From Alphaproteobacteria bacterium (GTDB taxonomy: Bacteria > Pseudomonadota > Alphaproteobacteria > RF32 > CAG-239): DNA of 64,000 nucleotides. The notes below the pieces were generated by a model that had not been told where the DNA came from, made no database searches, and was given only the letters and a program-made list of their open reading frames with translations. Of the stretch, positions 7,157 to 62,817 are shown piece by piece. Where the stretch lies: the NCBI GenBank assembly GCA_016283295.1, contig JAEEMQ010000030.1:11482-75481 (forward strand), given 5' to 3'. Numbering within the stretch: position 1 is the first letter of the stretch; the number at the start of each line of letters is the position of its first letter. The translations under genes and the position numbers were made by a program.

Positions 7157-7267
7157 ATTAACGCATAATTTTTTTTTGTTCAATCATAAATTTATTTACT
7201 TTTCGTTCATATTATCCTGTTATTGTAGCCTAAAGAACTATAAGCTTATTTTGATAAAGGTATCGCG

Positions 7268-11800: not shown

Positions 11801-13298
11801 TCAGAATGATGTGACCACGTCGCTGACATGGGTTACCAAGTATTCTGACGGAACTAAGAAGACTGAGGCAGTGAACAAGTCGTTCCCGCGCAGCTTCAAG
11901 GTTTTGAGCAACTGGTCTTCTAAGGAGGATGATAACACGCAGTCGACATCCGCAGCCAGCGTCAAGCTCAACGGCTCCGAGAGCAAGACAGACGGCAACT
12001 GGAGCTATGTTAAGGAAACCCGAAACATCAGCACCACAGCTCGTCTTAAGGGCTCAAGCCAGGAGAACAAGTGGGAAAGCGTTGACCCGAACAAGATTGT
12101 GTACTCCCGCGAGGGTAAGTCACACGACTTCGGTACGCTGAATTTCTCCGCCACCGAGACCGGCGCCAACGTGCAGCAGAAGAGTTCGAGTGCAACCGAG
12201 ACCGTTTACGGATATACCGATAACATTTCGGTTTCCTACGGTTCCAACAGCTTCAACTCATCGGCACCCGGTACCATCACGGTGAAGAAGGAAGTGACCG
12301 TTACCGACTATGCGATTGAGAATCCGCAGATTACCGTTAATCGGGATAATGTGACCACGTCTCTGACATGGGTTATCAAGTATTCCGACGGAACTCAGAA
12401 GACTGAGGCAGTGAACAAGTCGTTCCCGCGCAGCTTCAAGGTTTTGAGCAACTGGTCTTCTCGTGAGGATGACAATTCGCAGACTACCGGCTCGGCAAGC
12501 GTGAACCTCTCCGGTTCCGAGAGCAAGACGGACGGATACTGGAGCTATGTCAAGGAAACCCGAGACATCAGCACCACAGCTCGTCTTAAGAGCTCAAGCC
12601 AGGAGAACAAGTGGCAATCGGTTGACCCGAACAAGATTGTGTACAGCCGTGAAGGTAAGACACATGACTTCGGTACGCTGAATTTCTCCGCCACCGAGAC
12701 CGGTGCCAACGTGAAGAAGACCAGTTCGACCGACGCCGAAACAGTTTACGGTTATACCGACAACATTTCGGTTTCTTACGGTTCGGACAGCTTCAACTCA
12801 TCGGCACCCGGTAAGATTACGGTATCTACTCCTTGGACTCCCGACATCAATGTCAAGTTCACCGATGCAAAGGTAACCGCCACCATGGATGAGAACCATA
12901 AGACTTGGATGTATGCAGTGAGTGTACATTGTACCGACGGCACCTTCCCCATTCTGATTCGTCAGAATGCAAGTGCTCCGGATGCAATCAACATGAGCTA
13001 CAAGACATCGTCTACCAATTCGAATCTGAATGGTGCTTACTACATCAACGGTACTTGGCATAACGCTGTTGCCAGCGATGAGTCAAAGCACATGGCTTGG
13101 AGGGATGCAAATGGCGAGACCATGGGTATCCTGATCTATTCAACCGCTACCATGTGGGGCTGGGATGATGGTCATACGTCCGGCGGACATCCGACTGTCT
13201 TCACAGAGAAAATATCGGTAGAGCTGAATAGCGACAAGAGTGTATTGACGATCTACCGCGATGGTAGAAAGTTGGCTAGCTATAAGGGCAAAAAGTAA
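8844..13298 (+). CDS. Giant surface lipoprotein with five tandem ~180-aa S/T/N-rich modules
   Basis: 1484-aa ORF. The N-terminus MVALFAAVMFFTAC-EKLE has a lipobox-like Cys26. Five repeated modules and a distinct C-terminal domain. No SD before the ATG. Codon usage differs from the neighbours. A strong terminator lies downstream. Confidence 0.85.
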   Translation: MEKNGLTRAFRWMVALFAAVMFFTACEKLESNVSTKSEDEPVIPVGGITYENSLAHSIDTALKVKVSDHMTAGLTIWRTEDGQKAEKLFDNKEYPLMEAYSHLAREDYNITRAQLDIRPSSENISRDEGRDNDGNRLELDTVWHYYPDMQIASYPVKITSKTVEYDNVVYYYPSVTLERAEFVWLKNKEINSKARTRASYVAGVYNTEYKINLYLRETKVNDPKTFVLPLYANTTRSVLDEDAIEKVVAENKTRELLDSLRERCSFERVTTWKSGETTREKIEIILQHKVDKIAPYKKDVKNFNYQLAQVNGIKPGSEAENRTEGYWKVWRKTDTYSADHSNGVAADKITTDYSLMHERTIYKDDYLEVEFDYEDYRVDELATNVTPMNSDRQGYTEALFDNRINTTYISYKQQVNEQVYLYKADKKADDYKFENPKVTVYNDSVTADIDFIIIYDDGTKDKIHDHIKAARSLRCLTNWESSQKMASQITSDDVRVNLLSGDEVKNGYWKYTKQTRKLASDATLYDGSVMPNEWEAVVPNGFVYTREGKTYTFDNIAFNVKQMGGSLTAAGEKDGFSLHKYGDAIDVIYGNNTQRSVAPGLIKISNNTVEGYEIRNKQLSITPTKVVVSLDFITKFVNGTESKDPVTKEFPRSLIVTTNWTANENAATESTAAPTFTLASTNNKEEGEWKWKEETRNITAKVTLASSQQTNGWTSVDPNNIVFTRQGITADFGTLTFTTNKVSSAATLKESTAQTETYDYANIISVRYGNSATSDLQNSTAPGKIIVQKARTITGHEFRDPSLTVENDYVLAKITYVTKFSDGTEEKETSNLKVNRILNPYTSWTSSETNANETTGSANVNLTNSENKTDGYWSFVAETRDITTKAKLAGSEQTNGWTSVDPNSFVYTRDGEQYKFNKINFSALEAGHSVNLSGETATSSTYAYSDKINVTYGSNTKSSSAPGTITVKKEVTITDYEITDPKITVNQNDVTTSLTWVTKYSDGTKKTEAVNKSFPRSFKVLSNWSSKEDDNTQSTSAASVKLNGSESKTDGNWSYVKETRNISTTARLKGSSQENKWESVDPNKIVYSREGKSHDFGTLNFSATETGANVQQKSSSATETVYGYTDNISVSYGSNSFNSSAPGTITVKKEVTVTDYAIENPQITVNRDNVTTSLTWVIKYSDGTQKTEAVNKSFPRSFKVLSNWSSREDDNSQTTGSASVNLSGSESKTDGYWSYVKETRDISTTARLKSSSQENKWQSVDPNKIVYSREGKTHDFGTLNFSATETGANVKKTSSTDAETVYGYTDNISVSYGSDSFNSSAPGKITVSTPWTPDINVKFTDAKVTATMDENHKTWMYAVSVHCTDGTFPILIRQNASAPDAINMSYKTSSTNSNLNGAYYINGTWHNAVASDESKHMAWRDANGETMGILIYSTATMWGWDDGHTSGGHPTVFTEKISVELNSDKSVLTIYRDGRKLASYKGKK
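10134..12848 (+). repeat. In-frame tandem coding repeats, five units of 540-552 bp
   Basis: Units start at 10134, 10677, 11229, 11769 and 12309 (aa 431, 612, 796, 976, 1156). Each has the motifs …NW(T/S)S…T(D/E)G(Y/N)W…ETR(D/N)I(T/S)…W(T/E/Q)SVDPN…APG(T/K)I(T/I)V. The last two units are near-identical at DNA level. Confidence 0.9.
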
Positions 13299-13424: not shown

Positions 13425-15197
13425 ATGACAGATGATGAGTTGATGGCTGCCTTTGGCGAAGGTGCAGCTCCGGAAGATAAACAGGCAGAGGCCCCGCAAA
13501 ATACGGCCGATGCACAACTTGCCGCACAACTTGGCCAAGCGGTTGAGTTAAAAGACGGAGATATGGAAACTATCGACACTTTTGTTAACAAAAGCAGAGT
13601 CGGTTGTTTAAAGCGTATGGCTACGATGTCACTTTCCAAAGAAGACGTAAAAGCAAACATAATCAAGCCGGATATAACTCAACCTAAGGATTTACTTAAA
13701 CCGGGAATGATATCCGAAGCTAAACCCGGAGATAAAGATTATTCCCCAAACGCATTAGCTTACTGTTCGTCAAAGGACGGAAAGATTGTTCTTCAAGATT
13801 ATCAAGGAGAGCTCCGTGATGATGATTTGTTGGGTAAAGAATATCAAAAGGGTAATACGATAGCCAAGCTTTCGGTTGCCTACCACGAGTTGACTCACTA
13901 CAAACATTTTGAATATGACAACAGCGACGATTTCAAACATCCGGTTGATATAATCAAAGGCAGTCGGTTGAGTGAAAAAGTGGCTACGGCGGTACAATAC
14001 AATAATGCCGCTCAACTCTACACCATTCTGAAAGACCAAAATGTAACCCAAATTTCCGTAAATGGTGAAACCAAGCCGATTGAAAGCATTTTAGAACCTT
14101 TTGAAGGCTTAAAAGAATACGTGACGCAAAACGGTTATTCGCCGAACAACAAAAAAGACGTGCGGGCCGTTACCGAGATTGCCAGTAATTGGTGGAATGA
14201 AAAGCGCGAACAGGGATATACGTCACAACATTTGATATCCTCCGTAACCAGAAACGGTGCGGCAAATATTTTTGATGCGCTGAAATCGGATGAAAAAGTG
14301 TATGATGCCACCGCCAAAAGTATGTTGAAAGACGTATACATCGGCAACAATACCAATATCGATTTATCGCATTGCCGCGATTTGTTGGATGACATGACAA
14401 ACGAACAGGCTTTGGAGCTTACGGGAAATCAGCTGACGAGCTATCAATCCGGTGTAACGTTTAAAAATGCCGAAAAAATTTCTGCTTATTTGGAAACCAA
14501 AGGCCTGAAAACGGATGAAGAAAAATTGGCGTACCTGCAGGAAAATTTTGATAAAATGGTACTTCGCAACGGAGAATACGATAAAGATTTGAAAGAGCTT
14601 TTACTCAATCTCGAATCGCCTGACAAAGGCACTATTGTTTATGCCGACGGGTTGGAAGAACATCGCGGTGCCGACGGAAGTTATTCTCTCAAAAAAATCG
14701 GAGCCAAGCAACAACAAAACGCCGGAGACGGCACGGAGCTGGGTGTCAATACGACAACGAACACCGGCGTATCCGCAGCCGGTCCGGCGGAAATACCCGC
14801 CGATGATAAAGCGAAAATCGCTGCCTTGAGCGGCAGAAGCGGTCGCTACCAAAGCCCGGAATCGTTGCAGGCCGAAGCTTTGCAAGCCGAGCAGACCATT
14901 GACGCGCCGACCGTTGCTCCGGCTTCTCAGGAAGTAACACAACAAGCGCAAACCGCTCAGCCGCAACAAGCACAACCGGCACCGCAACAAGCGGTTGCCG
15001 AGGCTCAACCTGCCGGCAAAAAAGTAAAAGATATGTCGCCGCAGGAAAAGCATGAATTTATAAACGAAAATTTGCGCATGGGTAATAACCCGAATCTGAG
15101 CGGCGAATCGAAAAAATCCCGCAAAAAGACCAAGACTAAAGCGCGAACCGTCGACAATACCGTGGCACAGGCGCAAACTCTCCAAGCCGGCCGCTGA
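13425..15197 (+). CDS. Hypothetical protein with an HExxH motif and a low-complexity Q/A/P- and Lys-rich C-terminus
   Basis: 590-aa ORF with AAGGAG SD. HELTH at aa 154-158 (13884..13898). Acidic N-terminus with no signal peptide. The C-terminal third is Q/A/P-rich and ends in …SKKSRKKTKTKARTVDNTVAQAQTLQAGR. Confidence 0.75.
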   Translation: MTDDELMAAFGEGAAPEDKQAEAPQNTADAQLAAQLGQAVELKDGDMETIDTFVNKSRVGCLKRMATMSLSKEDVKANIIKPDITQPKDLLKPGMISEAKPGDKDYSPNALAYCSSKDGKIVLQDYQGELRDDDLLGKEYQKGNTIAKLSVAYHELTHYKHFEYDNSDDFKHPVDIIKGSRLSEKVATAVQYNNAAQLYTILKDQNVTQISVNGETKPIESILEPFEGLKEYVTQNGYSPNNKKDVRAVTEIASNWWNEKREQGYTSQHLISSVTRNGAANIFDALKSDEKVYDATAKSMLKDVYIGNNTNIDLSHCRDLLDDMTNEQALELTGNQLTSYQSGVTFKNAEKISAYLETKGLKTDEEKLAYLQENFDKMVLRNGEYDKDLKELLLNLESPDKGTIVYADGLEEHRGADGSYSLKKIGAKQQQNAGDGTELGVNTTTNTGVSAAGPAEIPADDKAKIAALSGRSGRYQSPESLQAEALQAEQTIDAPTVAPASQEVTQQAQTAQPQQAQPAPQQAVAEAQPAGKKVKDMSPQEKHEFINENLRMGNNPNLSGESKKSRKKTKTKARTVDNTVAQAQTLQAGR

Positions 15198-15834: not shown

Positions 15835-16407
15835 ATGAAAACAAACGAAACCGGTCGTTCAATGATTGAAATGCTCGGCGTGTTGGCCATTATCGGGGTT
15901 TTATCGGTAGGCGGCATTGCCGGATATTCCAAGGCTATGAACGTATATCGGGTGAATAAGTCCGTAGACCAACTGATGCAAATTGTGGCCAGCACGCGGT
16001 CGCTGTTTGCCGGACACAAATTATACACCTCTTTAACCAAAAGCAATAAGCCGAATATGGATCTGATTAAAAAGGCTCATTTGGTGCCTGACGATATGAT
16101 TAATGGCAACACTATAGAAAATGTTTACGGCGGTGAGGTATTGCTCAATAAGGCAAACAAAGGAAGCCGCACGGATAAGGCCTTTTCCGTTTATTTTGCG
16201 ATGATACCGCAATCATCTTGCATTGAGTTGGCAACCAAAGAATGGGGCCAGGGCAAAACTTCGGGATTGTATTCCATCAGCATTAACGGCACGGTGGTTC
16301 ATCAGGCAGATGCCACTGATGATAAAAAGAATCCGGTGGGTATTGCCAAGGCGGCAACTAACTGTAACAGCGCCACAGATAATAAGATTCTTTGGGTGTT
16401 CTATTAA
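15835..16407 (+). CDS. Type IV pilin / pseudopilin-like protein with a non-canonical class III signal
   Basis: The N-terminus is MKTNETG|RSMIEMLGVLAIIGVLSVGGIAGY: a Gly, then Glu at +5, then a ~20-aa hydrophobic helix. The C-terminal Cys pair (C128…C177) resembles a pilin D-region. Confidence 0.8.
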   Translation: MKTNETGRSMIEMLGVLAIIGVLSVGGIAGYSKAMNVYRVNKSVDQLMQIVASTRSLFAGHKLYTSLTKSNKPNMDLIKKAHLVPDDMINGNTIENVYGGEVLLNKANKGSRTDKAFSVYFAMIPQSSCIELATKEWGQGKTSGLYSISINGTVVHQADATDDKKNPVGIAKAATNCNSATDNKILWVFY

Positions 16408-28906: not shown

Positions 28907-29824
28907 ATGCTCGGCCGCGAAGTTGATAATTTTTTGCAAATGATGGCGGCGGAAAAGGGTTCTGCCCAAAATTCCATCAGCGCCTACGAAAGCGATTTGC
29001 AACAGTTCATTATATTCGGTAACTTTACCGAAGCCGTCGATATCAGCAAACAGGCGGTAGAATCATTTTTGCAAGACTTACATTCGCGGCATTTCGCGCC
29101 CAAAACAATCGCCCGCAAACTCTCGGTAATTAAAGAATTTTGCAAGTTTTTGTATTCGGAAAAAGTTATTAACGACAATCCGGCGCAAAATATTTTAACG
29201 CCTAAACAGGAAAAACCGTTGCCGAAATTTTTGAGCGCCGAAGAAATAAACAATTTAATCGAAACAGCGGCAGCCAGTGAAGATTACCGAATCCAGCGAA
29301 TCGCCGTAATGATTGAGTTGATGTATGCAACCGGAATGCGGGTTTCCGAGTTGGTGGCGCTACCGGTAACGGCCGTAAATTTTGATAAGAATCAGGTGAC
29401 GATTTTCGGTAAAGGCAGTAAGGAGCGCATCGTGCCGATGGCCGAACGCGCCGGCAAAACTCTGCAGAAATATGCCGAGTTGCGGCAGGAATTTATAAAA
29501 AAGAATGCTCATTCCAATTATCTGTTCCCTTCGCTGACGGCGGTTGACGGGCATTTAACCCGCGATGCCTTTTTTAAGGATTTGAAAAAACTGGCGGCGG
29601 AATGCGGCATTTATCCGTCGCGCATTTCACCGCACGTTCTGCGCCACTCGTTTGCCACGCATTTATTAAATAACGATGCCGATTTGCGCTCGGTGCAAAA
29701 AATGCTCGGCCACGAAAATATTACCACAACGGAGATATATACTCACATAACATCGCAAAAACTTCTCGACACCGTGTGTCAAAAACATCCGTTGGCAAAA
29801 TACGCAAACAAAGATGAGGGGTAA
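28907..29824 (+). CDS. xerD: Site-specific tyrosine recombinase XerD
   Basis: 305 aa. The N-terminal SAM-like domain (…AEKGSAQNSISAYESDLQQF) and the catalytic R…HxxR…Y set (ATGMRVSEL, HVLRHSFATHLL, GHENITTTEIYTH) are present. Housekeeping context, divergent from aroK. Confidence 0.85.
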   Translation: MLGREVDNFLQMMAAEKGSAQNSISAYESDLQQFIIFGNFTEAVDISKQAVESFLQDLHSRHFAPKTIARKLSVIKEFCKFLYSEKVINDNPAQNILTPKQEKPLPKFLSAEEINNLIETAAASEDYRIQRIAVMIELMYATGMRVSELVALPVTAVNFDKNQVTIFGKGSKERIVPMAERAGKTLQKYAELRQEFIKKNAHSNYLFPSLTAVDGHLTRDAFFKDLKKLAAECGIYPSRISPHVLRHSFATHLLNNDADLRSVQKMLGHENITTTEIYTHITSQKLLDTVCQKHPLAKYANKDEG

Positions 29825-51192: not shown

Positions 51193-52188
51193 ATGAGCGA
51201 TGAAGATACTTTTAGCGACGGCGACGATTTTGAAAGACTCTTGAACAGCTTCATCAATTCCAAAGTAGATGACTTTGATGATGACGACGATGACGATAAA
51301 AAAGATGCTAAAAACCCGAAAGATGACGACGATAAGGAAGATTTTCCGCCAGTTGAGGATGAGGATGAAAATGAAGACGAGCTGCAACTGAGCCCGCAGG
51401 GACAAAGCGAAAACGAAGAAGCGGCCGAAGAATTTGAAAAAGAAGTTGCCGAAACTTTTGATGCCGCGCGCACCGCAATTGAAGAAGAGGACCAAAGTCC
51501 GGAATTAAAGGGAGAAGAATCGGAACTGGCTCAGGCTTTCATAAATTATAAAAGCTCCATAGATAAAATTTGCAAAAACAAGCAGATTCCTCCGTATAAC
51601 TGGCAGTTTGAAATCGATTATCTGTACCCTAATTACAAGCCGAGCGTAGGGCATTTGCTGGCCGGAGATTTGATTGCCGGCTGGAACATTTTGCAAGAAA
51701 TTTTCCCGGATACCATCGGACGCTTCCGGGTTTCGTCAACGGATGAGGAGTTTTTGAACTTTGCCGAAACGTTGCGCGACCAAAACCTACAGCTGGCGGT
51801 TATTTCTTATGTGGAAATTCTGATAGATATGGAAAGTTGCGAACTGACTTATCAAGCAAAACTGCTGAAATATCAGGAAAAACACATCAAACGCCTGTTG
51901 TATGAAGAATATTTGGAGCGCAAAGAGCGCCAAAAACGCTTTGTCGAGGCGGTTAAAAAGAAGAATTTTCCGATTGATGCCGAGCGCTTAATCAGCAACT
52001 ATTTCCGGGTGGCGCAAAAAGATATTGACGGTGCATTTACGGCACTTACGACTAATCCGGCAATTTTTGCGCCGATTGATTTTGCCAAAATCAAACCGCG
52101 CTTTTTCGGGTTGGTAAAAGTTACGCCTAAAGACGGTATTCGCGTCAATATGGAAATCGGCAAATTTATGAAAAAGGTAAAGGTTTAG
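51193..52188 (+). CDS. Hypothetical protein with an extremely acidic N-terminal third (poly-Asp)
   Basis: ATG 51193 follows AAGGGAG. aa 1-90 are D/E-rich, including VDDFDDDDDDDKKD (51268..). The C-terminal ~230 aa are predicted helical and globular. First gene of the T4CP cluster. Confidence 0.7.
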   Translation: MSDEDTFSDGDDFERLLNSFINSKVDDFDDDDDDDKKDAKNPKDDDDKEDFPPVEDEDENEDELQLSPQGQSENEEAAEEFEKEVAETFDAARTAIEEEDQSPELKGEESELAQAFINYKSSIDKICKNKQIPPYNWQFEIDYLYPNYKPSVGHLLAGDLIAGWNILQEIFPDTIGRFRVSSTDEEFLNFAETLRDQNLQLAVISYVEILIDMESCELTYQAKLLKYQEKHIKRLLYEEYLERKERQKRFVEAVKKKNFPIDAERLISNYFRVAQKDIDGAFTALTTNPAIFAPIDFAKIKPRFFGLVKVTPKDGIRVNMEIGKFMKKVKV

Positions 52189-52269
52189 GCAAAAAAAATA
52201 AATGTGGACAAAAATGTTTTTTTATGATATTATCATATTAAATTGAATTGCTTTAGAGGAGATATTCTG

Positions 52270-54426
52270 ATGGCTGATACTATTGATGCGGATTTTAAGG
52301 CTTTTTGCAGCGAATTGAAAAAATCGTCGCCGGACCCTGATAAAATCAAGGCCGGTATAATGAAGTACGGCTTTTCGCAACTGAGTGATTCGCAAAAAGC
52401 GATGTTTCAGGCAGCGATATTTCCGAAGCCGACTCCGCGCGGCAAGAAAGACTCCGAAAAGCTCGGGTTCAAAAATCTGGATAAAATCAATCACACTCTG
52501 CACATTATGCAGGATTTGTATGCCGGCGGAGCCATCAGCAAAGAAGATATGTCAGCCTTTTTAACCGAACCGCAACGGATTGAGCACAAAGATGAAAACG
52601 GAGAAATCAGCTATCGCTACGGCAAAACACTGTTGGCCGAAGTTGCGCTGAACACGTATGCCATAGAGTTCAAAGATGCCCGATTTGACAAGAAGTTGAA
52701 AGAAGAAGGCATCAGCGATGATTTGCGCAGCGATTTAACTAAATTACGCGAGAAATTATATAAAAATTCCGAAACGGCAATGGAAATTCAAAATACTCTC
52801 GGCAAACTTGACGGAGAGCTGTTGTATGAAGTGTTCAACAAAGAAGATAACCATACCGGCAGAAACTTTAAGTACAGCGATTTGGCCAAAAAGTCGTTTA
52901 TGATGAAGGACGCTTTTGAAAAAGCCGAGCGCTATGCCGCTCAGCATCAGGCCGAACCGGAGCGCACGCAAACGGAAAATACTCCGGCGGAAGAACCGGT
53001 CCGTTTCGGCGGTATGCCGGAAAATTCGGATACGCTGACCTTTTCGGCGCAACCTAATAATTTGAACGTTTCGACCAATACCCCGCCTCCTCCGCCGCCA
53101 CAAAACACGGAAGGCGATACTCAGGAAAATCCGGCTCAGTTGGAAGACTCCAAGAGAGATTCCAAGCGCGGCAAATCACAGTTTGATTTTAAGCCGGTAT
53201 CCGAACAGGATTTGATTAAATATCTCTACAACGTTTGGTTCCTGGGCCTGATTAACTGGACGCTTAAAAAGACATTTCAGGGGCTTGACGGCGCCATCGA
53301 TTATCTGTGCGGTGACAGCGGCAAGGCACCGGTAAGATCCGCCATCGCAACGCGCAATCAGGCAAACGGAGCCCAGCAAACACCACCTGCGGGGCCGAAT
53401 AACGGCGGTCGCAACGGTTTTGAGTTTAGTCCGGAAGCGATGAAGTTCAACAAGCAAATGGCTCGCATGATTGATCTGGCCAGAGATAACAATCTCAACG
53501 AATTCAGCAAGGTTATGAAAGATGCTAAGACGCTCAAGGCCGTTCTTGAGTGCATTCAGAACAATATCGGCAAAGGTGTGCACCTGTGGACAGCGGTTGA
53601 CGGATTTAATCCGCATAATCATTTGGAATTTGCGGCAAGTCTGAATAAATCGTTTTTTGCCAACAAAGCCCTGTTCCGCGGCAATTTAGCGACCTTGATG
53701 AAAAATCCGAAAATTTTATCCGAACTTTTCTCCAAAGATAAACTCAGAATGTGTGCGGCTTTAGCCACCATCGACTATATTCGGAAACATCCGGGCAAAG
53801 AATTGGACGGCAATGCCGAAGCGGCGGAAAAAATCCGTAAAGACACGTTGATCAAGTTCAAAGATATGACGGAAACCGCCGCGCATATTCTCCACGAAGA
53901 AGAAATAAAGTTCAAGCACAACAACAATTTGCGTCCGGATGCCGAGCTTTCTAAGGAACAGTTAAAGACCGTTGCCGAGAATGCTTCCGTTGAAATGAAG
54001 GGCTATTTTGAAAAAATGTGTCGCGCCGGCGGCGATTTGACGCTACAGCTGTGTGAACATCACGCCGCGACCGATGCCACCCAGAAAAAACTGCTGGAGC
54101 AGGAAATTCGCATAAAGGCGGCCGAATTTGATAAGATTTACAACAAATATCGTTCGCCGGATGATGATGTGCAGCCTACCGAAACCCGCAAAAAGGCCAA
54201 AACCGGACCGATGGATATAGTGGAAGCGGCTAATGCCGAACAGGCCGGTGAGAGAAAGCAGCAAACTTGGGAAGGCGATATCGGTGCCAAAAAAGCGCAG
54301 AACGAGGCCGAAAGAGGCAAAAATGCTCAACGCAAAGTAAAAGTAAAAGACTTTAAGCGGCGCATGGAAGGCAAATATCAGACGAAACAGGCCAGGATGC
54401 AGAAAAATCAGGGATCACGTGAATGA
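52270..54426 (+). CDS. Large hypothetical protein (about 718 aa), helical, with a PPPPPP linker and a Lys/Arg-rich C-terminal tail
   Basis: ATG 52270 follows GAGGAG. No TM segment or signal peptide. Central low-complexity region (…NTPPPPPPQNTEGD…). The C-terminus is …AERGKNAQRKVKVKDFKRRMEGKYQTKQARMQKNQGSRE. Confidence 0.7.
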   Translation: MADTIDADFKAFCSELKKSSPDPDKIKAGIMKYGFSQLSDSQKAMFQAAIFPKPTPRGKKDSEKLGFKNLDKINHTLHIMQDLYAGGAISKEDMSAFLTEPQRIEHKDENGEISYRYGKTLLAEVALNTYAIEFKDARFDKKLKEEGISDDLRSDLTKLREKLYKNSETAMEIQNTLGKLDGELLYEVFNKEDNHTGRNFKYSDLAKKSFMMKDAFEKAERYAAQHQAEPERTQTENTPAEEPVRFGGMPENSDTLTFSAQPNNLNVSTNTPPPPPPQNTEGDTQENPAQLEDSKRDSKRGKSQFDFKPVSEQDLIKYLYNVWFLGLINWTLKKTFQGLDGAIDYLCGDSGKAPVRSAIATRNQANGAQQTPPAGPNNGGRNGFEFSPEAMKFNKQMARMIDLARDNNLNEFSKVMKDAKTLKAVLECIQNNIGKGVHLWTAVDGFNPHNHLEFAASLNKSFFANKALFRGNLATLMKNPKILSELFSKDKLRMCAALATIDYIRKHPGKELDGNAEAAEKIRKDTLIKFKDMTETAAHILHEEEIKFKHNNNLRPDAELSKEQLKTVAENASVEMKGYFEKMCRAGGDLTLQLCEHHAATDATQKKLLEQEIRIKAAEFDKIYNKYRSPDDDVQPTETRKKAKTGPMDIVEAANAEQAGERKQQTWEGDIGAKKAQNEAERGKNAQRKVKVKDFKRRMEGKYQTKQARMQKNQGSRE

Positions 54427-54899
54427 TTAAAAAGTTTTTCCACTACGTTTGCGTGATTATCGCTTCCGGCTTATGGGTTGCTTTGCTGGCCGGTTTGGTA
54501 TCGTATGCCATTATGCTGATATATCATACCACACCGTTGATATTTTATCAAAAACTGGCTCTTTTCTGGGACCAGGGTAATATCATTCACGGTCGGGATT
54601 TAATTTTTATTACGACAATTATACTGTTGGTACCGCTCTGTTTTTACGGGGTGTACCGCCTCTATCATTTTAAGTATATGAAGTTGCTGACGGTGCCGCT
54701 GAACAAAATCTTCAACAGCGGATTCAATAATTACGTTGCGCCGGACGTAAACATCAAGAACTTAAAGATTGAGGAAAAGAAAACCCTGGATCAGTTTATT
54801 AAAGAACGGCTCGATGTGGAAAAGAAGAAAACACAAACCGCCGGCGCAACTGATTTCAGGAAAGAAATTATTGAAAAAATACAAAAGTCAGAAAAATAA
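54423..54899 (+). CDS. Membrane protein (2 TM), hypothetical
   Basis: 158 aa with an ATGA overlap with the upstream gene. Two TM helices and a charged C-terminal tail. The N-terminal module resembles that of the next gene. Confidence 0.65.
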   Translation: MIKKFFHYVCVIIASGLWVALLAGLVSYAIMLIYHTTPLIFYQKLALFWDQGNIIHGRDLIFITTIILLVPLCFYGVYRLYHFKYMKLLTVPLNKIFNSGFNNYVAPDVNIKNLKIEEKKTLDQFIKERLDVEKKKTQTAGATDFRKEIIEKIQKSEK

Positions 54900-54942
54900 A
54901 AAAATATATTCACTTTTTTAACATTTACATGTTATTAATATT

Positions 54943-56445
54943 GTGGGTACGTTTATAAGATTACGGAGTGCACGGTTGAAATCGGTATTGGTATTTCTCA
55001 GAATTTTGATTGTCGGTTGCCTGTGGGGTATTGTCTTCACCGAGGGCATCCGCGTTATCATGCTGTGCAACTGGCATTTTGATATTTTCTGGCCTGATCA
55101 CTGGCATCAGTTTGCAACCGCCTGGAGAGCCGGTTGGTTCCCGCGAGCGCCGAAAGAATGGGCCTTTATTATGCTGATTATCGTTTTCTTCCCAATGTTG
55201 ATTACCGGCTGGTGGACTTTGTGCATGGTCGCCTGGGAAGAAATTATTTGGAAAATATTGAAATTGCCGTATACGCTGTATACCAAATACATCAGCAAAT
55301 CCGCTCCGACCCCGATTGCCGCAAACAACCGCTACGGTGTGGTTAAACGCAAGTCTTATAAGCTGATTCGCCCGGCAGGAATCAATACTCTGCGCGTACC
55401 GATTTCCGATTACGGCAGCTCAAGCTCCTCCGCTCCGTTGGCGCCGACCGCCGGTTCTTCCTATTCTTCGCCGTATTCCGCTCCGGCCGCGTCTGCCGCT
55501 CCGGCACCGGCTACGGCTAAGAAAAAGACCGATGTTGCCGCCACAATCGACCACGCATTATTCAAATTTGACGATGACGACGATGACGATTTCGATTTGG
55601 ATATAGATTCGTTTGAAAAAGCCGATTTAAGCAAGAAAAAGAGTAGCGAAAGCAAGGCCAAAAAACGCTCATTCGACGATGACGATGACGAGGAGTTTAC
55701 ACGTTCCAAACGGGCTAAACCGAAGTATGATTTTGACGACGACGATGATGAAGATGATGAGACCGAGGCTAAATTTGAAAAGCCGGTATCAAGTCGCCGT
55801 GAAAGCAAGGAAAAAGAAAGCCGCAAATCTTCCCGTAAATCCGAGGATACTCCTAAACGCAGTACCCGCTCGCAACGCAATACCGAAGATGAGGGAGAGG
55901 GCAGCCGCCGCGGCAGAACAAGCGAAAACAGAGCATCCGAGGCATCTCAGGGCCCGGTATACGATGCTTTGGCTCAGAAGAATTATGAAATTATCAGTAA
56001 CGTTACGGTCAATAATACCGTTATCGACTTTGTCGGTGTTTCGGAAAACGATATTTATCTGTGTTTGGTTGATAAAGAAAGCGGCGATTGGCTTGCCGAC
56101 GAAGAAATGTTTAACGGTGAAGAGCCGCTGTGGTTCTCGGAAAGCAGCCACCGCGTTTCTCCGGTATGCAAATTAAACAGCGTTAAAAAGCAGATTGAAA
56201 GCGCGTTGGATGACGGCGGATTCGAGCAAAAAATCATTCCGTGTGTGATTATTCAGATGGCGAACATCATCAATGCCGACGATATGTTTGACATCTGGAA
56301 TGAAATGGGGATAGAAGTCACCCGCATCAATCGGGGCGCGCCGAAGGAAATCAAACTGTTCTCCAAGCTTTTGAATGAGGCCGACGGCAAGGTTTCTAAG
56401 AGAGAATTGGATAATTTACGTAAATTATTGAAAAACATAAAATAA
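54943..56445 (+). CDS. Membrane-anchored protein with a disordered poly-Asp/Lys-Ser-Arg linker and a C-terminal alpha/beta (NERD/nuclease-like?) domain
   Basis: 500 aa, GTG start (uncertain). TM helices in aa 15-105, S/A/P-rich aa 155-195, three F/Y-D-poly-D tracts (55561-55761), a basic S/R/K stretch, then a globular C-terminus …YEIISNVTVNNTVIDFVGVSENDIYLCLVDKESGDW…. Confidence 0.7.
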   Translation: MGTFIRLRSARLKSVLVFLRILIVGCLWGIVFTEGIRVIMLCNWHFDIFWPDHWHQFATAWRAGWFPRAPKEWAFIMLIIVFFPMLITGWWTLCMVAWEEIIWKILKLPYTLYTKYISKSAPTPIAANNRYGVVKRKSYKLIRPAGINTLRVPISDYGSSSSSAPLAPTAGSSYSSPYSAPAASAAPAPATAKKKTDVAATIDHALFKFDDDDDDDFDLDIDSFEKADLSKKKSSESKAKKRSFDDDDDEEFTRSKRAKPKYDFDDDDDEDDETEAKFEKPVSSRRESKEKESRKSSRKSEDTPKRSTRSQRNTEDEGEGSRRGRTSENRASEASQGPVYDALAQKNYEIISNVTVNNTVIDFVGVSENDIYLCLVDKESGDWLADEEMFNGEEPLWFSESSHRVSPVCKLNSVKKQIESALDDGGFEQKIIPCVIIQMANIINADDMFDIWNEMGIEVTRINRGAPKEIKLFSKLLNEADGKVSKRELDNLRKLLKNIK

Positions 56446-56463
56446 CTTATGAGGTGATAAAAA

Positions 56464-58677
56464 ATGGCAAATGATCGTGGCGAGGAATGGAAAGAATATG
56501 ACAAAGCCGTCAGGTGGATGCTGATTACGCTGCTTATCTGCGTTGTATTGAGCGTCATCTTCTTTGTTTTCAGCCTGCCGTTGTCATACATTGTCGGACA
56601 CGGCGTATCCAAATCGTCAACTACCGTGGTGCAAAAGTTTTTATCGTTGGTATGGCAGCATCCTGACCATTTGTTTACCATGTACGGCAAATGGTGGCGA
56701 CAGTTATGGAACCACCGTGGTCCGTTTTCGCTCAGTTTGTGGATTCCGATATTGCCGTTTATTACCATACCGCTCGGCATTATAATCAGCGCATTGTTCA
56801 GCCCGTATAAATTCCAGGTCAACTATCAAGGTCAGGCCAAAATTGCCGATTTGCGCGATATTAAACACATGCCGTTGTTGGGTTTTGACGGTTTCTGCCA
56901 AGTGGTAGGAAAATTTGACGGCAAGTTCCTGTTGTTGAAAGAAACGCTGGCAACCCTGTGCTGCGCACCTCCTGGTACCGGTAAAACCGTGGGTGTGGTG
57001 ATGCCGACGATTTTCCACTCCGATGGTCTGAGTTTGGTGATTAATGACCCGAAACCGGAACTTTGTTATAAAACTTCCGGTGCACGCGCGAAAGTGGGAC
57101 CGGTGTTCATTATTAACTGGGGTGCGGAAGATAACCCGAGCGAAGGTATTTATTATCCGAGTTGGAACCCGTTGTCACCGAACTGTATTCCGGAACAAGG
57201 TCCGGATCGCGACATGTATGTTGACTCCATGTGCAATATTTTGGTGGAAGACCCGAAAGGCGGCGCCGACCCGCACTGGTCGCAAACCGGCCGTGCCGCA
57301 TTAACCGGATTTATTCAATTTGTGGTTTCAAAGTGTGACCGCGCCCGTGCCAACGACTATTTCATCGGCCGTATTTATGAAGGCAAACTCGATGAAAAAG
57401 ATAAGGAAGTTCTGGAGGGTTATTATCAGGATATGCGTGATCCGGGAGCTCCGCGCGCCATCCAAAACCTTAAAAACGGCACTTTAACCATGGAAAACTA
57501 TCTGCCTATCGGTACTTGGAATTTGTTGCCAGCACGGTGGATGGGGCGTGAAGCCTGTATTGCCATGATTATGGAATGGATTACCGAGGCGCAAATCAAC
57601 GCCGCACAAGAAATTCAGCGTCGTCTGGATGAGGGCGACCAAATGGCAGCGATGGCCGACCCGACCCACGATATGTTGGAAGAAGCCATTAAAGAAGCAC
57701 GTAATTACGGATATGCTCAGCGTTGCGTTACCGAATTGAGTACCTTGAGTAATACCCCGGATAAAGAGCGCGGTTCCATTCTTTCTACCGCATTCGCCGG
57801 TATTAACATATTTAAGAACCAAGCGGTTAAAGCACGTACCAGTTTTTCCGATTTGCAGTTTAAGGATTTGCGCGGTATGAAAGACCCGATTACCGGCGAA
57901 TGGAAGCCAATTTCGGTTTATTTGTCGGTTAACCAGGTTGATGCGCGCGCTCTGGGCGTTATCAGTTCGACCTTTATTGAGTTGATGAGTTCTTACCTGA
58001 TTTCCAACCCGCCTAACCACGTCAACCGTACCGACGGCAAGATGGGGCCTTTCCCTGCCCTGTTCGTGCTCGACGAGTTTCCGCAAATGCCGAAGATGAA
58101 AGCTATTATTGACGGAACGGCCGTAGGTCGTGGTCAAAAAGTGTCGTACCTCCTTATCGGACAAGACTTGGGCCAAATTTCCGGTAAATACGGTAAAGAT
58201 GACTTGGAAACGGTGATTTCTACTACCGCCTGCAAAGTTATTCTGTCGCAAAACAACGAGGTTACGGCACAACGTTTCTCCAAGATGATCGGTAACAAAA
58301 CGGTACGTATTTCTTCGTTCTCACGTACGGAAGGTTCTTTGGGTAAAGACTTTAACCCGCTGGCTAAAAACGTTAACTACCAACTGCAAGGTATTCCGGT
58401 TATCAGCTCGACCCAGCTGTTGAGTTTGCCGATGTTAAAGCAAGTGGTATTGATGCAAAGCCATATCGACCGTCCGATTATTGCCGACTCACCGCGTTGG
58501 TATTTGGATAAGGGAATGACCAAGTTGGCTAAGCTCCCGCCGTGCGCCAACGTGCCGGATTGGGTGGTGGCACAACGTGAAGACATCAATGACGATATGC
58601 TGGCCAAATTGGGCATTGAATACAACGCCGAGGAGGATGACAGCGAAGGTTTTGAGATGGACGCTCCACAGGCTTAA
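56464..58677 (+). CDS. Type IV secretion coupling protein (T4CP), VirD4/TraG family
   Basis: 737 aa with GAGGTGA SD. Two N-terminal TM helices. Walker A APPGTGKT (56965-56988), …VINDPKPEL…, Walker B LFVLDEF (58060-58080), …YLLIGQDLGQISGKYG…. Acidic C-terminus. Confidence 0.9.
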   Translation: MANDRGEEWKEYDKAVRWMLITLLICVVLSVIFFVFSLPLSYIVGHGVSKSSTTVVQKFLSLVWQHPDHLFTMYGKWWRQLWNHRGPFSLSLWIPILPFITIPLGIIISALFSPYKFQVNYQGQAKIADLRDIKHMPLLGFDGFCQVVGKFDGKFLLLKETLATLCCAPPGTGKTVGVVMPTIFHSDGLSLVINDPKPELCYKTSGARAKVGPVFIINWGAEDNPSEGIYYPSWNPLSPNCIPEQGPDRDMYVDSMCNILVEDPKGGADPHWSQTGRAALTGFIQFVVSKCDRARANDYFIGRIYEGKLDEKDKEVLEGYYQDMRDPGAPRAIQNLKNGTLTMENYLPIGTWNLLPARWMGREACIAMIMEWITEAQINAAQEIQRRLDEGDQMAAMADPTHDMLEEAIKEARNYGYAQRCVTELSTLSNTPDKERGSILSTAFAGINIFKNQAVKARTSFSDLQFKDLRGMKDPITGEWKPISVYLSVNQVDARALGVISSTFIELMSSYLISNPPNHVNRTDGKMGPFPALFVLDEFPQMPKMKAIIDGTAVGRGQKVSYLLIGQDLGQISGKYGKDDLETVISTTACKVILSQNNEVTAQRFSKMIGNKTVRISSFSRTEGSLGKDFNPLAKNVNYQLQGIPVISSTQLLSLPMLKQVVLMQSHIDRPIIADSPRWYLDKGMTKLAKLPPCANVPDWVVAQREDINDDMLAKLGIEYNAEEDDSEGFEMDAPQA

Positions 58678-58696: not shown

Positions 58697-58732
58697 AAAA
58701 GCCTCGCTTATGACGAGGCTTTTCTTTTATTT
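58697..58732. terminator. Bidirectional hairpin terminator between the T4CP gene and marC
   Basis: AAGCCTCG (58699-58706) / CGAGGCTT (58714-58721) with a 7-nt loop, followed by a T-rich run (to 58732) and preceded by an A-run. Confidence 0.7.
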
Positions 58733-62070: not shown

Positions 62071-62817
62071 TTACATATCGTGGATAATTTCTTCGGGCTG
62101 CAGGTCTTTTTTCTCGGCTTCGATGTATGTTTTGCCGTTAACGTCGGTATGATAAACGTCGGCGCCGGCGGCAATAAGCTGCAACGAAATGTCGGAATTA
62201 CCGTAGGCTTCGGCATAAAACAAAGCGGTGCGGCCGTTTTGATCTTCCTGGTTTACGTCGGCACCGGCCTCAAGCAAAATAGCTACAATCTCGCCGTTCC
62301 ACGCATTAGTGGCGGCCTTCATCAGCGGAGTACCGAGCGGAGTTTCCTGGTTTATATCCGCGCCCAAATCTATGAGCAAACGCACCGTTTCCACGGCATA
62401 TTTCATTTCTTTGGCCGCGGCTTTTTTGAAGTCGTCCGCCATTTTTTCACGGTCGCGCGGTGACAGTTCGCCGATAAAAACTCTCGCGGCCTCGACCTGT
62501 ATGCGATCCGCCGCCGTAACGGCATAAATCAACGGAGTTTCTCCGGTCGGCGGCACCGGCGTATTCAAATCGGCCCCGTTATCCGCCAAAAAACGCAACA
62601 CCTGCGGCACACGCGCCGAAGTAAGCGCAAAATAAAACAACGGCCGATTATGCGAATCATGCATATTCACATCAAGCCCTTCCGCCGTCATTTTTTCCAG
62701 CGCGGCCACATCGTTCTTTTTTACGGCGGCTTCAACGTCGGCAACGCTCGGAGCGGCAACGCTGACGGATACCGGCCATAAAAGCAAACCGAACAATATC
62801 GAAATTATGTACTTCAC
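62071..62817 (-). CDS. Exported ankyrin-repeat protein
   Basis: 248 aa. Signal peptide MKYIISILFGLLLWPVSVSVAAPS. At least 4 ANK repeats (…GADVNQEDQNGRTALFYAEAYGNSDISLQLIAAGADV…). The GTG start overlaps the upstream stop (GTGA). Confidence 0.85.
   Translation of the reverse strand: MKYIISILFGLLLWPVSVSVAAPSVADVEAAVKKNDVAALEKMTAEGLDVNMHDSHNRPLFYFALTSARVPQVLRFLADNGADLNTPVPPTGETPLIYAVTAADRIQVEAARVFIGELSPRDREKMADDFKKAAAKEMKYAVETVRLLIDLGADINQETPLGTPLMKAATNAWNGEIVAILLEAGADVNQEDQNGRTALFYAEAYGNSDISLQLIAAGADVYHTDVNGKTYIEAEKKDLQPEEIIHDM

What the first reader, a model, noticed from the sequence alone, without database searches (positions are those of the whole stretch)
51193..58677. Orphan VirD4/TraG-type coupling ATPase in a five-gene cluster of unrecognisable acidic and membrane proteins, with no channel, relaxase or integrase in 64 kb
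Five co-directional, tightly spaced genes (51193-52188, 52270-54426, 54423-54899 with an ATGA overlap, 54943-56445, 56464-58677) lie between the divergent rluD-rpoH genes and the convergent marC-hppA genes. The cluster ends at a strong hairpin (58699-58721). The last gene is an unmistakable T4CP: two N-terminal TM helices, Walker A APPGTGKT (56965-56988), Walker B LFVLDEF (58060-58080), a GQDLGQISGKYG motif and an acidic C-terminus. T4CPs normally sit beside a VirB/Trb/Dot-Icm channel and, for conjugation, a relaxase. None of these is present in the window, nor is an integrase, tRNA or flanking repeat. By eye, codon usage (AAA/GAA/CCG-rich) matches the flanking housekeeping genes, so this is not an obviously recent mobile-element fragment. 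I cannot assign any of the four partner proteins to a family. A membrane protein directly upstream of the T4CP recalls dotM(icmP)-dotL(icmO) of type IVB systems, where DotM recognises acidic substrate motifs. Here the partner itself carries poly-Asp tracts. Working hypothesis: a stand-alone or trans-acting substrate-recruitment/translocation module built around a domesticated coupling ATPase.
Basis: partly seen in the sequence, partly recalled or inferred. Interest (0 to 1): 0.8.

Follow-up and report, generated by a model that had tools for sequence, protein, structure and literature searches.

The report
T4SS coupling-protein islet, novel partners
The five-gene cluster is real and is inherited vertically across a whole clade of uncultured gut and rumen Alphaproteobacteria. 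It is most likely not a stand-alone machine but the coupling-ATPase "islet" of a chromosomally scattered, Rickettsia-like type IV secretion system, and it carries four previously undescribed partner proteins.

Summary
The 64-kb window holds no channel gene, relaxase, tRNA or flanking repeat.

The cluster is not a mobile remnant. The order rpoH-rluD<>g1-g2-g3-g4-T4CP recurs in about 66 species-level genomes. The T4CP is as conserved as sigma-32 (median 75% identity), and its ATPase motifs are invariant in 81 of 81 copies.

Partners:
- g4 has a W-rich two-TM hairpin, a conserved FD-rich acidic motif and a cytoplasmic restriction-endonuclease-like (NERD-type) domain.
- g3 is a paralogous hairpin.
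- g1 is an acidic all-alpha protein with no known fold relative.
- g2 is hypervariable with a basic tail.

None of the partners resembles DotM or any plasmid protein.

In sister lineages (T4CP 58-64% identical, same g1/g3/g4), the cluster abuts a tandem array of two to three or more VirB6 paralogs. In one locus it lies near VirB8-VirB8-VirB9. These are the hallmarks of the Rickettsiales rvh "archipelago".

So the T4CP is orphan only locally. Channel genes in this genome are inferred, not shown. This is a new variant of a known kind, of moderate interest.

The parts
51193..52188 (+). g1: soluble acidic protein (331 aa, pI 4.5). It has a conserved N-terminal motif DDFEKLLNxFI (51223-51258), an acidic disordered stretch that includes FDDDDDDD (51274-51297), and a conserved all-alpha C-terminal domain from about residue 105 to 331.
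   Evidence: ORF; ortholog alignment A2. The AF2 model is all-helical and confident over about residues 110-250. Foldseek against PDB finds nothing with E<1. No Pfam, NCBIfam or PADLOC hit. There are 563 homologs, all unnamed or 'hypothetical' in uncultured Alphaproteobacteria.
52270..54426 (+). g2: hypervariable soluble protein (718 aa, pI 8.6) with no TM segment. Its only conserved element is a hydrophobic helix, KExDIIxYMYxxWxLxxxNWxxxK (53200-53271). The C-terminal tail is basic.
   Evidence: Orthologs range from 427 to 1069 aa, and mean column identity is 13%. The last 50 residues carry a net positive charge in 31 of 32 orthologs. None of the 32 orthologs has a shared or convincing Pfam hit (one stray match, E 0.002).
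54423..54899 (+). g3: small inner-membrane protein (158 aa) with a two-TM hairpin (54447-54503 and 54600-54656) and a charged cytoplasmic tail. It is a paralog of the g4 N-terminal hairpin.
   Evidence: hhalign of A3 against A1 gives probability 99.1% and E 1e-18. In sister lineages g3 is a full-length g4 paralog of 387 aa.
54943..56445 (+). g4: membrane-tethered partner (500 aa). Its elements are:
- a W-rich two-TM hairpin (54985-55041 and 55165-55221)
- a SYKxIRP motif (55354-55374)
- a conserved acidic motif HALFKFDDDDDDDFDLDIDSFEK (55552-55620)
- a variable charged linker
- a highly conserved cytoplasmic restriction-endonuclease-like (NERD-type) domain (about 55951-56442), with the signature GDWLADEExFNxEEPLWFSESSHRxSPV (56083-56166)
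   Evidence: Alignment A1. Pfam NERD scores 24.8 bits against a gathering score of 22.1, and 6 of 32 orthologs hit it. AF2 gives pLDDT 88 and pTM 0.83. The top Foldseek hits all have PD-(D/E)xK folds (1y88, 3fov, NucS, R2 RLE, Nt.BspD6I, Hjc), but with E>=4e-3 and TM 0.3-0.4. g4 sits directly upstream of the T4CP in nearly every locus examined, including lineages with only about 54% T4CP identity.
56464..58677 (+). VirD4-type type IV coupling protein (737 aa). It has TM1 (56521-56577), TM2 (56743-56799), Walker A (56965-56988), Walker B (58060-58080), the GQDLGQISGKYG motif (58159-58194) and an acidic C-terminal tail.
   Evidence: The motifs are invariant in 81 of 81 orthologs. Median identity to the window copy is 74.9%, against 75.1% for rpoH and 67.5% for rluD. 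The nearest plasmid relatives are 32-36% identical VirD4 proteins in MobA-VirB2-B11-VirD4 loci of Sphingomonadales and Microvirga.
58697..58723 (+). Intrinsic-terminator-like hairpin that closes the cluster.
   Evidence: 10-bp stem followed by a T run. This is a consensus match only. The number of such sites in the region is not above the shuffled expectation.

Best explanation
The cluster is the substrate-recruitment (coupling) islet of a vertically inherited VirB/VirD4-type type IV secretion system whose genes are scattered around the chromosome. The host is a clade of small-genome gut and rumen Alphaproteobacteria.

Proposed mechanism:
- The T4CP, an ATP-driven hexameric motor anchored by two TM helices, sits in the inner membrane together with g4 and its paralog g3. 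Their W-rich hairpins are the membrane subunits.
- g4 hangs a restriction-endonuclease-fold domain and an FD-rich acidic peptide into the cytoplasm as a docking platform.
- g1 (acidic, all-alpha) acts as a soluble adaptor or chaperone.
- g2 (hypervariable, basic C-tail) is either a substrate or a lineage-specific adaptor.
- Substrates engaged here are handed to a VirB channel (VirB6 paralogs, VirB8/9/10 and others) encoded in other islets, as in the Rickettsiales rvh 'archipelago'.

Shown: the gene content, the conservation, the intact ATPase motifs, the g3/g4 paralogy, the g4 fold class, and the linkage to VirB6 and VirB8/9 in sister lineages.

Inferred: physical contacts between the proteins, the role of each partner, the nature of the cargo, and the presence of channel genes in this particular genome.
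For: 1. The T4CP is intact and strongly constrained. Walker A, Walker B and the GQD motif are invariant in 81 of 81 copies, and identity equals that of rpoH.
2. Operon-like packing, with gaps of 81, -4, 43 and 18 nt. The order g1-g2-g3-g4-T4CP beside rluD-rpoH is kept in about 66 loci drawn from the best 80 of 201 species hits. It is kept again in JGI/ENA metagenome contigs.
3. g4-T4CP is the conserved core. It persists in lineages with only 53-60% T4CP identity.
4. Sister lineage L106-L108, L114-L116, L118, L127 (T4CP 58-64% identical to the window). These loci carry g1 (E 1e-35), a long g3, g4 and the T4CP. Directly upstream and divergently transcribed lie 2-3+ tandem VirB6/TrbL paralogs. 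Pfam PF04610 scores 30-41 bits against a gathering score of 25.9. The paralogs are mutually homologous at 1e-7 to 1e-26.
5. L120 (T4CP 59.7% identical) carries VirB8 (3e-21), a second VirB8 (2e-10), VirB9/CagX (2e-12) and a probable VirB10 N-terminus. They lie 4-9 kb from g3L-g4-T4CP among housekeeping genes.
6. Duplicated VirB8/9, multiplied VirB6, vertical inheritance and rearrangement into islets are the published signature of rvh (PMC2653234).
7. In an NJ tree the chromosomal T4CPs form one clade (84% bootstrap). That clade is sister to VirD4 of VirB-bearing alphaproteobacterial plasmids.
Against: No channel gene is seen in the window (64 kb) or within +-10 kb of the T4CP in any of the 80 loci of the window's own clade. 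I could not scan a whole genome, so the presence of VirB genes in this organism is extrapolated from relatives whose T4CP is about 60% identical.

In nine more distant lineages (L083-L092) the T4CP is also locally channel-less. Persistent separation in so many lineages is unusual for virD4 and would also fit a channel-independent role.

No partner protein has a demonstrated interaction, and no multimer modelling was available.
Confidence: 0.7

Rival explanations
1. Stand-alone, channel-independent translocase. In the window's clade the T4CP, g4 and g3 form a self-sufficient inner-membrane machine that moves DNA or protein. It may cooperate with a type IV pilus rather than a VirB channel, for example in DNA uptake or export by a metabolically reduced cell.
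For: None of about 90 loci of the window clade and deeper lineages has VirB genes within 10 kb.

Type IV pilus genes recur beside the T4CP. A pilin lies 43 nt upstream in L083, two pilins lie downstream in L084, pilins lie downstream in L010 and L015, and a prepilin peptidase lies 15 nt downstream in L091.

The partner has a nuclease-type fold. A secreted SNase lies at 6650-7183 and a PilS-like pilin at 15835-16407 in the window.
Against: Sister lineages with the same partner genes place the cluster next to VirB6 arrays and VirB8/9.

The pilin family is multi-copy (three copies within 21 kb in L010), so adjacency is only weakly above chance: about 0.23 expected against 2 observed within 1 kb in the first 80 loci (my estimate).

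No T4CP is known to act without a T4SS (established knowledge). The canonical E-x-K catalytic triad of g4's nuclease-like domain is not kept.
Confidence: 0.15
2. DNA-processing and transfer module. g4's restriction-endonuclease-like domain acts as a membrane-tethered nickase, an analogue of MOB_C-type endonuclease-fold relaxases. The T4CP then pumps chromosomal or other DNA, so the system is conjugative or DNA-releasing rather than protein-secreting.
For: g4 has a PD-(D/E)xK/NERD fold. The closest T4CP relatives serve conjugative VirB systems that have MobA relaxases. No classical relaxase is present, which leaves that role vacant. The partners carry acidic, DNA-mimicking tracts. In six deeper lineages the upstream partner is a pentapeptide-repeat protein, a fold known to mimic DNA.
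Against: The canonical catalytic Lys is not conserved. The site reads D377-K/R/N378-E379 instead of (D/E)-x-K. The most conserved surface is an acidic loop, which fits protein binding better. I looked for no oriT-like repeat; the repeat scan over the cluster and its flanks found no notable inverted repeat. The basic C-tails of g2 resemble protein translocation signals. Similarity to MOB_C relaxases was not tested.
Confidence: 0.1
3. Decaying remnant of an integrated conjugative element.
For: The T4CP has no channel, relaxase or integrase nearby.
Against: Synteny is conserved across about 66 species-level genomes. The T4CP is as conserved as rpoH, its ATPase motifs are invariant, and no pseudogenisation is seen. 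Base composition is native, and there are no flanking repeats or tRNA.
Confidence: 0.02

Closest known systems
Rickettsiales vir homolog (rvh) T4SS 'archipelago' (Gillespie et al. 2009, PMC2653234)
   Same: Both are chromosomal and vertically inherited P-type T4SSs in reduced-genome Alphaproteobacteria. In both, the genes are rearranged into separate islets. Relatives of the window organism show tandem multiplied VirB6 paralogs and duplicated VirB8.
   Different: From memory, rvhD4 sits at the end of the virB8-11 islet. Here the T4CP has its own islet with four novel partners. The T4CP is not an RvhD4 ortholog: NCBIfam PRK13897 scores 125 bits against a cut-off of 728. The hosts are free-living or epibiotic gut and rumen bacteria, not known intracellular Rickettsiales. 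The channel islets of the window genome itself have not been seen.
VirD4 coupling proteins of MPF_T conjugative plasmids (Erythrobacter, Sphingosinicella and Microvirga megaplasmids)
   Same: These are the closest annotated relatives, at 32-36% identity and E about 1e-98. They share the same domain set, TM topology and motifs.
   Different: The plasmid genes lie immediately after virB8-11, with MobA relaxases nearby. The window gene is chromosomal and syntenic across a clade, and has no relaxase.
Legionella Dot/Icm coupling complex (DotL-DotM-DotN-IcmSW-LvgA)
   Same: The idea is the same: a T4CP with a dedicated membrane partner encoded just upstream, plus soluble adaptors and acidic-motif recognition.
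   Different: There is no homology. The T4CP gives no DotL/IcmO hit and g4 gives no DotM hit. g4's soluble domain is an alpha/beta endonuclease-like fold, whereas DotM's is helical (from memory). Here the acidic motif sits on the partner itself.
NERD / PD-(D/E)xK nuclease-like domains
   Same: The g4 C-domain passes the Pfam NERD gathering score, and its AF2 model best matches restriction-endonuclease-fold proteins.
   Different: Support is marginal. Only 6 of 32 orthologs hit NERD, Foldseek gives E>=4e-3, and TM scores are 0.3-0.4. The catalytic (D/E)-x-K is not conserved. A family-specific acidic insertion is the most conserved feature.
Bacteria-killing X-T4SS of Xanthomonadales (VirD4-recruited toxins with cognate immunity proteins)
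   Same: In 60 or more related loci the T4CP is followed by a two-gene pair. The second gene is SUKH-like: SMI1_KNR4 5e-4 and SUKH_5 6e-4, both sub-threshold. The first carries an HNH-like motif by eye. Together they suggest an effector-immunity pair.
   Different: The pair is absent from the window and from its nearest relatives L001-L036. HNH is not supported by Pfam or PDB profile searches. No XVIPCD-type signal was examined.

Membership tests
Type IV coupling protein (VirD4/TraG family) | T4SS-DNA_transf / TraG-D_C / TrwB nucleotide-binding domain | tested here: met
   Pfam gives 1e-56, 2e-21 and 1e-17, all above the gathering scores.
Type IV coupling protein (VirD4/TraG family) | Walker A and Walker B motifs intact | tested here: met
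   APPGTGKT and hhhhDEF are invariant in 81 of 81 orthologs.
Type IV coupling protein (VirD4/TraG family) | N-terminal two-TM membrane anchor | tested here: met
   Hydropathy peaks at residues 20-38 and 94-112.
Type IV coupling protein (VirD4/TraG family) | Membership of a curated equivalog (VirD4, IncP/Ti TraG, F TraD, Bacteroides MobC) | tested here: not met
   The best NCBIfam scores are 141 and 125 bits, against cut-offs of 250-900. No DotL/IcmO hit. The protein is a divergent subfamily of its own.
Type IV coupling protein (VirD4/TraG family) | Works with a VirB4-containing T4SS in the same genome | not testable with these tools
   Whole genomes could not be scanned. No VirB gene lies in the window or in the 80 clade loci. 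VirB6 arrays and VirB8/9 are linked to the cluster in sister lineages.
rvh-like scattered T4SS | Tandem multiplied VirB6 paralogs | tested here: met
   Met in relatives only. L108, L114, L116, L118 and L127 carry 2-3+ paralogs (PF04610, 30-41 bits), and the paralogy is confirmed by blastp. Not seen in the window.
rvh-like scattered T4SS | Duplicated VirB8 (and VirB9) | tested here: inconclusive
   L120 has two VirB8 genes and one VirB9. It is a single locus, and no VirB9 duplicate was seen.
rvh-like scattered T4SS | Vertical inheritance, with genes split into chromosomal islets among housekeeping genes | tested here: met
   Synteny with rluD-rpoH across the clade. VirB8/9 lie among helicase and esterase genes in L120. 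The chromosomal T4CPs are monophyletic.
Dot/Icm coupling complex (DotL-DotM) | T4CP of the DotL/IcmO type and an upstream DotM/IcmP homolog | tested here: not met
   Neither gene gives a Pfam or NCBIfam hit to these families. g4's soluble domain has an endonuclease-like alpha/beta fold.
NERD / PD-(D/E)xK nuclease superfamily (g4 C-domain) | Restriction-endonuclease-like alpha-beta-beta-beta-alpha-beta core | tested here: met
   The AF2 model has pLDDT 88. Foldseek's top hits are all of this fold, with probability 0.9-0.99 for 1y88, 3fov and 2vld, although E is only 4e-3 to 3e-2. Pfam NERD scores 24.8 against a gathering score of 22.1.
NERD / PD-(D/E)xK nuclease superfamily (g4 C-domain) | Catalytic D...(D/E)-x-K motif | tested here: not met
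   D362 is nearly invariant, but the second motif reads D377-K/R/N378-E379. The Lys is neither at the canonical position nor invariant. Nuclease activity is therefore doubtful.
Integrative conjugative / mobilisable element | Relaxase, element integrase, att repeats, tRNA target, patchy distribution | tested here: not met
   No MobA hit. The only tyrosine recombinase is a Xer-type gene 22 kb away. There is no tRNA and no flanking repeat. The locus is universal and syntenic in the clade.
Anti-phage defence system | Match to a known defence protein family, with a variable 'island' distribution | tested here: not met
   PADLOC gives no hit for the T4CP, g1, g2 or g3, and only E 0.07 for g4. The locus is core, not variable.

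The most novel reading that the evidence does not exclude
The window's clade may have kept the T4CP-g4-g3 membrane complex after losing, or functionally uncoupling from, the VirB channel. The coupling ATPase would then work as a channel-independent translocase, together with its membrane-tethered endonuclease-fold partner and possibly with the multi-copy type IVb-like pilins. A plausible role is DNA uptake or export in a metabolically dependent small cell. That would be the first T4CP shown to work outside a T4SS.
Probability: 0.12. Interest if true: 0.85.

Novelty: new variant of a known kind. Interest (0 to 1): 0.55.

Why it matters
Coupling proteins decide what a type IV secretion system exports. 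Outside Legionella's DotL complex, very few dedicated T4CP partner proteins are known.

This locus defines a conserved partner set found in hundreds of uncultured gut and rumen Alphaproteobacteria. It comprises a paralogous pair of W-rich membrane hairpins, one of which carries an endonuclease-fold domain and an FD-rich acidic peptide, plus an all-alpha acidic protein with no fold relative in the PDB.

The locus also indicates that an rvh-style, vertically inherited, islet-scattered T4SS exists outside the classical intracellular Rickettsiales. The hosts are small-genome members of animal gut communities. This bears on how such metabolically reduced bacteria interact with neighbours or hosts, and on when the rvh architecture arose.

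For annotation, it shows that a locally 'orphan' T4CP should not be read as stand-alone until sister-lineage synteny has been checked.

Tried and rejected
- **DotM/DotL analogy.** No family hit, and the fold is different.
- **T4CP hairpin homologous to the g3/g4 hairpins.** hhalign gives probability <1%.
- **Sequence searches against PDB.** Nothing significant for the T4CP alone, or for the g4, g1 and g6 profiles.
- **Fold search for g1.** No match with E<1.
- **PADLOC defence families.** None.
- **Plasmid-borne homologs of the g4 and g1 domains.** None in 72,556 plasmids.
- **The conserved terminal 'GGR' of g2 as a secretion signal.** More likely it is the Shine-Dalgarno sequence of the overlapping g3. 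Only the net positive charge of the tail is retained as an observation.
- **Weak 'VirB9' profile hits in L050, L058, L061, L077 and L169.** These are SPOR-domain DD-carboxypeptidases, hence false positives.
- **HNH assignment of g6.** It rests on a motif seen by eye. Pfam and a PDB profile do not support it; pyocin AP41 appears only at E 0.66.
- **Pentapeptide repeats in g2.** None found.
- **The small DUF6476 gene upstream of g1 in one subclade.** It is absent from the window clade and is probably just a neighbour.
- **Literature on RF32/CAG-239 secretion systems or orphan T4CPs.** Nothing relevant found.
- **Exact look-up of the window's own proteins to extend the contig.** They are not on record.

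Full report
**Observation.** They are packed like an operon, with gaps of 81, -4 (ATGA), 43 and 18 nt. A terminator-like hairpin follows at 58697-58723.

The last gene is a clear type IV coupling protein (T4CP). Pfam gives T4SS-DNA_transf 1e-56, TraG-D_C and TrwB_AAD_bind. It has two N-terminal TM helices, Walker A at 56965-56988 and Walker B at 58060-58080.

The rest of the window is housekeeping: suf genes, enolase, pfk, addAB, the atp operon, tgt, acrAB-oprM, rpoH, rluD and hppA. It also holds some secreted or unknown proteins.
- There is no tRNA and no Rfam family.
- There is no VirB2-B11 or MobA homolog, by tblastn or by local profiles.
- There are no flanking repeats.
- The only tyrosine recombinase is a Xer-type gene at 28907-29824.

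**Who carries it.** The T4CP has hundreds of close relatives (73-93% identity) in uncultured Alphaproteobacteria from rumen and gut. A scan of one genome per species found 201 species. The nearest locus, L001 (99% identical), is MAG-R073. That MAG is a small-cell, metabolically reduced rumen alphaproteobacterium of order RF32 or Rs-D84 (PMC8992543).

In about 66 loci the arrangement rpoH-rluD<>g1-g2-g3-g4-T4CP is kept. The downstream side is not conserved.

Median identity to the window copy:

| Gene | Median identity |
|---|---|
| T4CP | 74.9% |
| rpoH | 75.1% |
| rluD | 67.5% |
| g4 | 49% |
| g1 | 48% |
| g3 | 39% |
| g2 | 30% |

Walker A, Walker B and GQDLGQISGKYG are invariant in 81 of 81 copies. 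This rules out a decaying mobile remnant.

**The partners.**
- **g4 (500 aa).** It has an almost invariant W-rich two-TM hairpin, a SYKxIRP motif and a conserved acidic peptide (HxLFKFDDDxDDDFDFDIDSFE). A variable charged linker follows, then a very conserved C-terminal domain.
  - That domain hits Pfam NERD just above threshold, as do 6 of 32 orthologs.
  - Its AF2 model is confident (pLDDT 88).
  - Foldseek returns only restriction-endonuclease-fold proteins at the top (AF1548, RPA0323, NucS/EndoMS, R2 RLE, Nt.BspD6I, Hjc). The statistics are weak, with E>=4e-3 and TM 0.3-0.4.
  - The canonical (D/E)-x-K is not kept. I therefore treat the domain as a probably non-catalytic, or at least non-canonical, docking domain.
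- **g3 (158 aa).** It is a paralog of the g4 hairpin (hhalign 99.1%, E 1e-18). In sister lineages it is a full-length g4 paralog.
- **g1.** It has a conserved DDFEKLLNxFI motif, an acidic disordered stretch and an all-alpha domain with no PDB fold relative.
- **g2.** It is hypervariable and soluble. It has one conserved helix and a basic tail in 31 of 32 orthologs.

None of the partners has a homolog on 72,556 plasmids or in PADLOC. None hits a Dot/Icm family.

**Origin of the T4CP.** Its closest annotated relatives (32-36% identity) are VirD4 proteins of Erythrobacter, Sphingosinicella and Microvirga megaplasmids. There they follow virB8-11 and lie near MobA relaxases.

A full HMMER scan of 1.8 billion representatives found intermediate relatives at 35-54% identity. 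I inspected nine of their contigs. In all of them the T4CP is chromosomal, sits among housekeeping genes and has no VirB neighbour.
- In L084 a g4 homolog directly precedes the T4CP.
- In six deeper lineages a pentapeptide-repeat protein does.

In an NJ tree all these chromosomal T4CPs form one clade (84% bootstrap). That clade is sister to the plasmid VirD4 group.

**The decisive evidence.** A metagenome scan with a T4CP alignment gave 80 more loci. g4 precedes the T4CP in nearly all of them.

One sister lineage comprises L106-L108, L114-L116, L118 and L127. Its T4CP is 58-64% identical to the window's, and it has g1, a g2-like gene, a long g3 and g4.
- In these loci a tandem array of two to three or more VirB6/TrbL paralogs lies immediately upstream of g1 on the other strand.
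- Pfam PF04610 scores 30-41 bits against a gathering score of 25.9.
- The paralogy is confirmed by blastp.

In L120 (T4CP 59.7% identical), two VirB8 genes, a VirB9/CagX gene and a probable VirB10 start lie 4-9 kb from the cluster.

Multiplied VirB6, duplicated VirB8/9, vertical inheritance and rearrangement into islets are exactly the features described for the Rickettsiales rvh system (PMC2653234).

**Conclusion.** The T4CP is orphan only locally. The best reading is a coupling islet of a scattered rvh-like VirB/D4 system with a novel partner set.

Channel genes in this particular genome remain an inference, because no whole-genome scan was possible. The channel-independent reading therefore keeps a minority probability. 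A recurrent but statistically weak association with type IVb-like pilins and a prepilin peptidase gives it some support.

The cargo is unknown. Two observations lean towards protein substrates:
- g2 has a basic C-terminal tail.
- In 60 or more related loci (not in the window) a two-gene pair follows the T4CP. Its second member is SUKH-like.

The endonuclease-fold partner keeps a DNA-related role open.

Noticed in passing
window 15835-16407 (+); also L010 (3 copies), L015, L083:9503-9958, L084:13437-13880 and 13941-14279, L091:10630-11334: The window encodes a type IVb-like pilin (Pfam PilS 4.5e-20, Bundlin 7e-9). Its N-terminus, GRSMIEMLGVLAIIGVLSVGGIAGY, is nearly identical in multi-copy pilin genes of related genomes. 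Such pilins, and in L091 a prepilin peptidase, lie directly beside the T4CP in five lineages. The association is only weakly above chance.
   Followed up: partly
L087-L092 (T4CP 35-41% identical to the window): In six deeper lineages the chromosomal T4CP is always immediately preceded by a soluble pentapeptide-repeat protein. These proteins are 335-521 aa long, carry an SKYDFP motif and have a very basic C-tail. No VirB gene is nearby. Three of these T4CPs carry 300-aa acidic/aromatic C-terminal extensions. I did not find a description of this pairing in the literature searched.
   Followed up: partly
Directly downstream of the T4CP in 60-64 loci (e.g. L077:12202-13282, L108:12367-13875, L084:12265-13334); absent from the window and from L001-L036: A conserved two-gene pair follows the T4CP. 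g6 has a conserved C-terminal domain with an HNH-like motif by eye (NxHxKIPxxxGGxxDxxNxxLxxTHPxHxxIH) but no Pfam or PDB support. g7 (about 145 aa) gives sub-threshold SUKH/SMI1_KNR4 hits (5e-4). This may be an effector-immunity pair.
   Followed up: partly
window 51274-51297 and 55567-55590: The same 24-nt stretch, TTTGA(T/C)GATGACGACGATGACGAT, encodes FDDDDDDD in both g1 and g4 (96% identical). It is the only repeat family of note in the 48.5-61 kb region.
   Followed up: yes
L037-L080, between rluD and g1 (e.g. L041:5190-5483): An extra small gene of about 90 aa has an N-terminal TM anchor and a beta-rich domain (Pfam DUF6476, 4e-9). It precedes g1 in the more distant subclade but is absent from the window's subclade.
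   Followed up: yes
L120:836-2359 (-): The VirB9/CagX homolog near the cluster carries a C-terminal SPOR (peptidoglycan-binding) domain, which seemed an unusual fusion for VirB9.
   Followed up: no
L106-L108: 8952-9905 (+): An extra 317-aa membrane protein lies between g4 and the T4CP. Its C-terminal 90 residues resemble T4CP residues of about 271-369 (25-36% identity), so it looks like a partial T4CP duplicate.
   Followed up: no
window 8844-13298, 2-664, 7268-8578, 13425-15197, 6650-7183, 62071-62817: The window holds several secreted or unknown proteins:
- a 1484-aa lipoprotein with internal ~170-aa repeats and no Pfam hit
- a cysteine-rich secreted protein
- two large proteins with no family
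- a signal-peptide-bearing staphylococcal-nuclease homolog (SNase 1.4e-12)
- a signal-peptide-bearing ankyrin-repeat protein (identified by eye)

These are candidate surface or effector proteins of a host- or neighbour-associated lifestyle.
   Followed up: no
By architecture and context it is a XerC/D-type housekeeping recombinase.
   Followed up: partly
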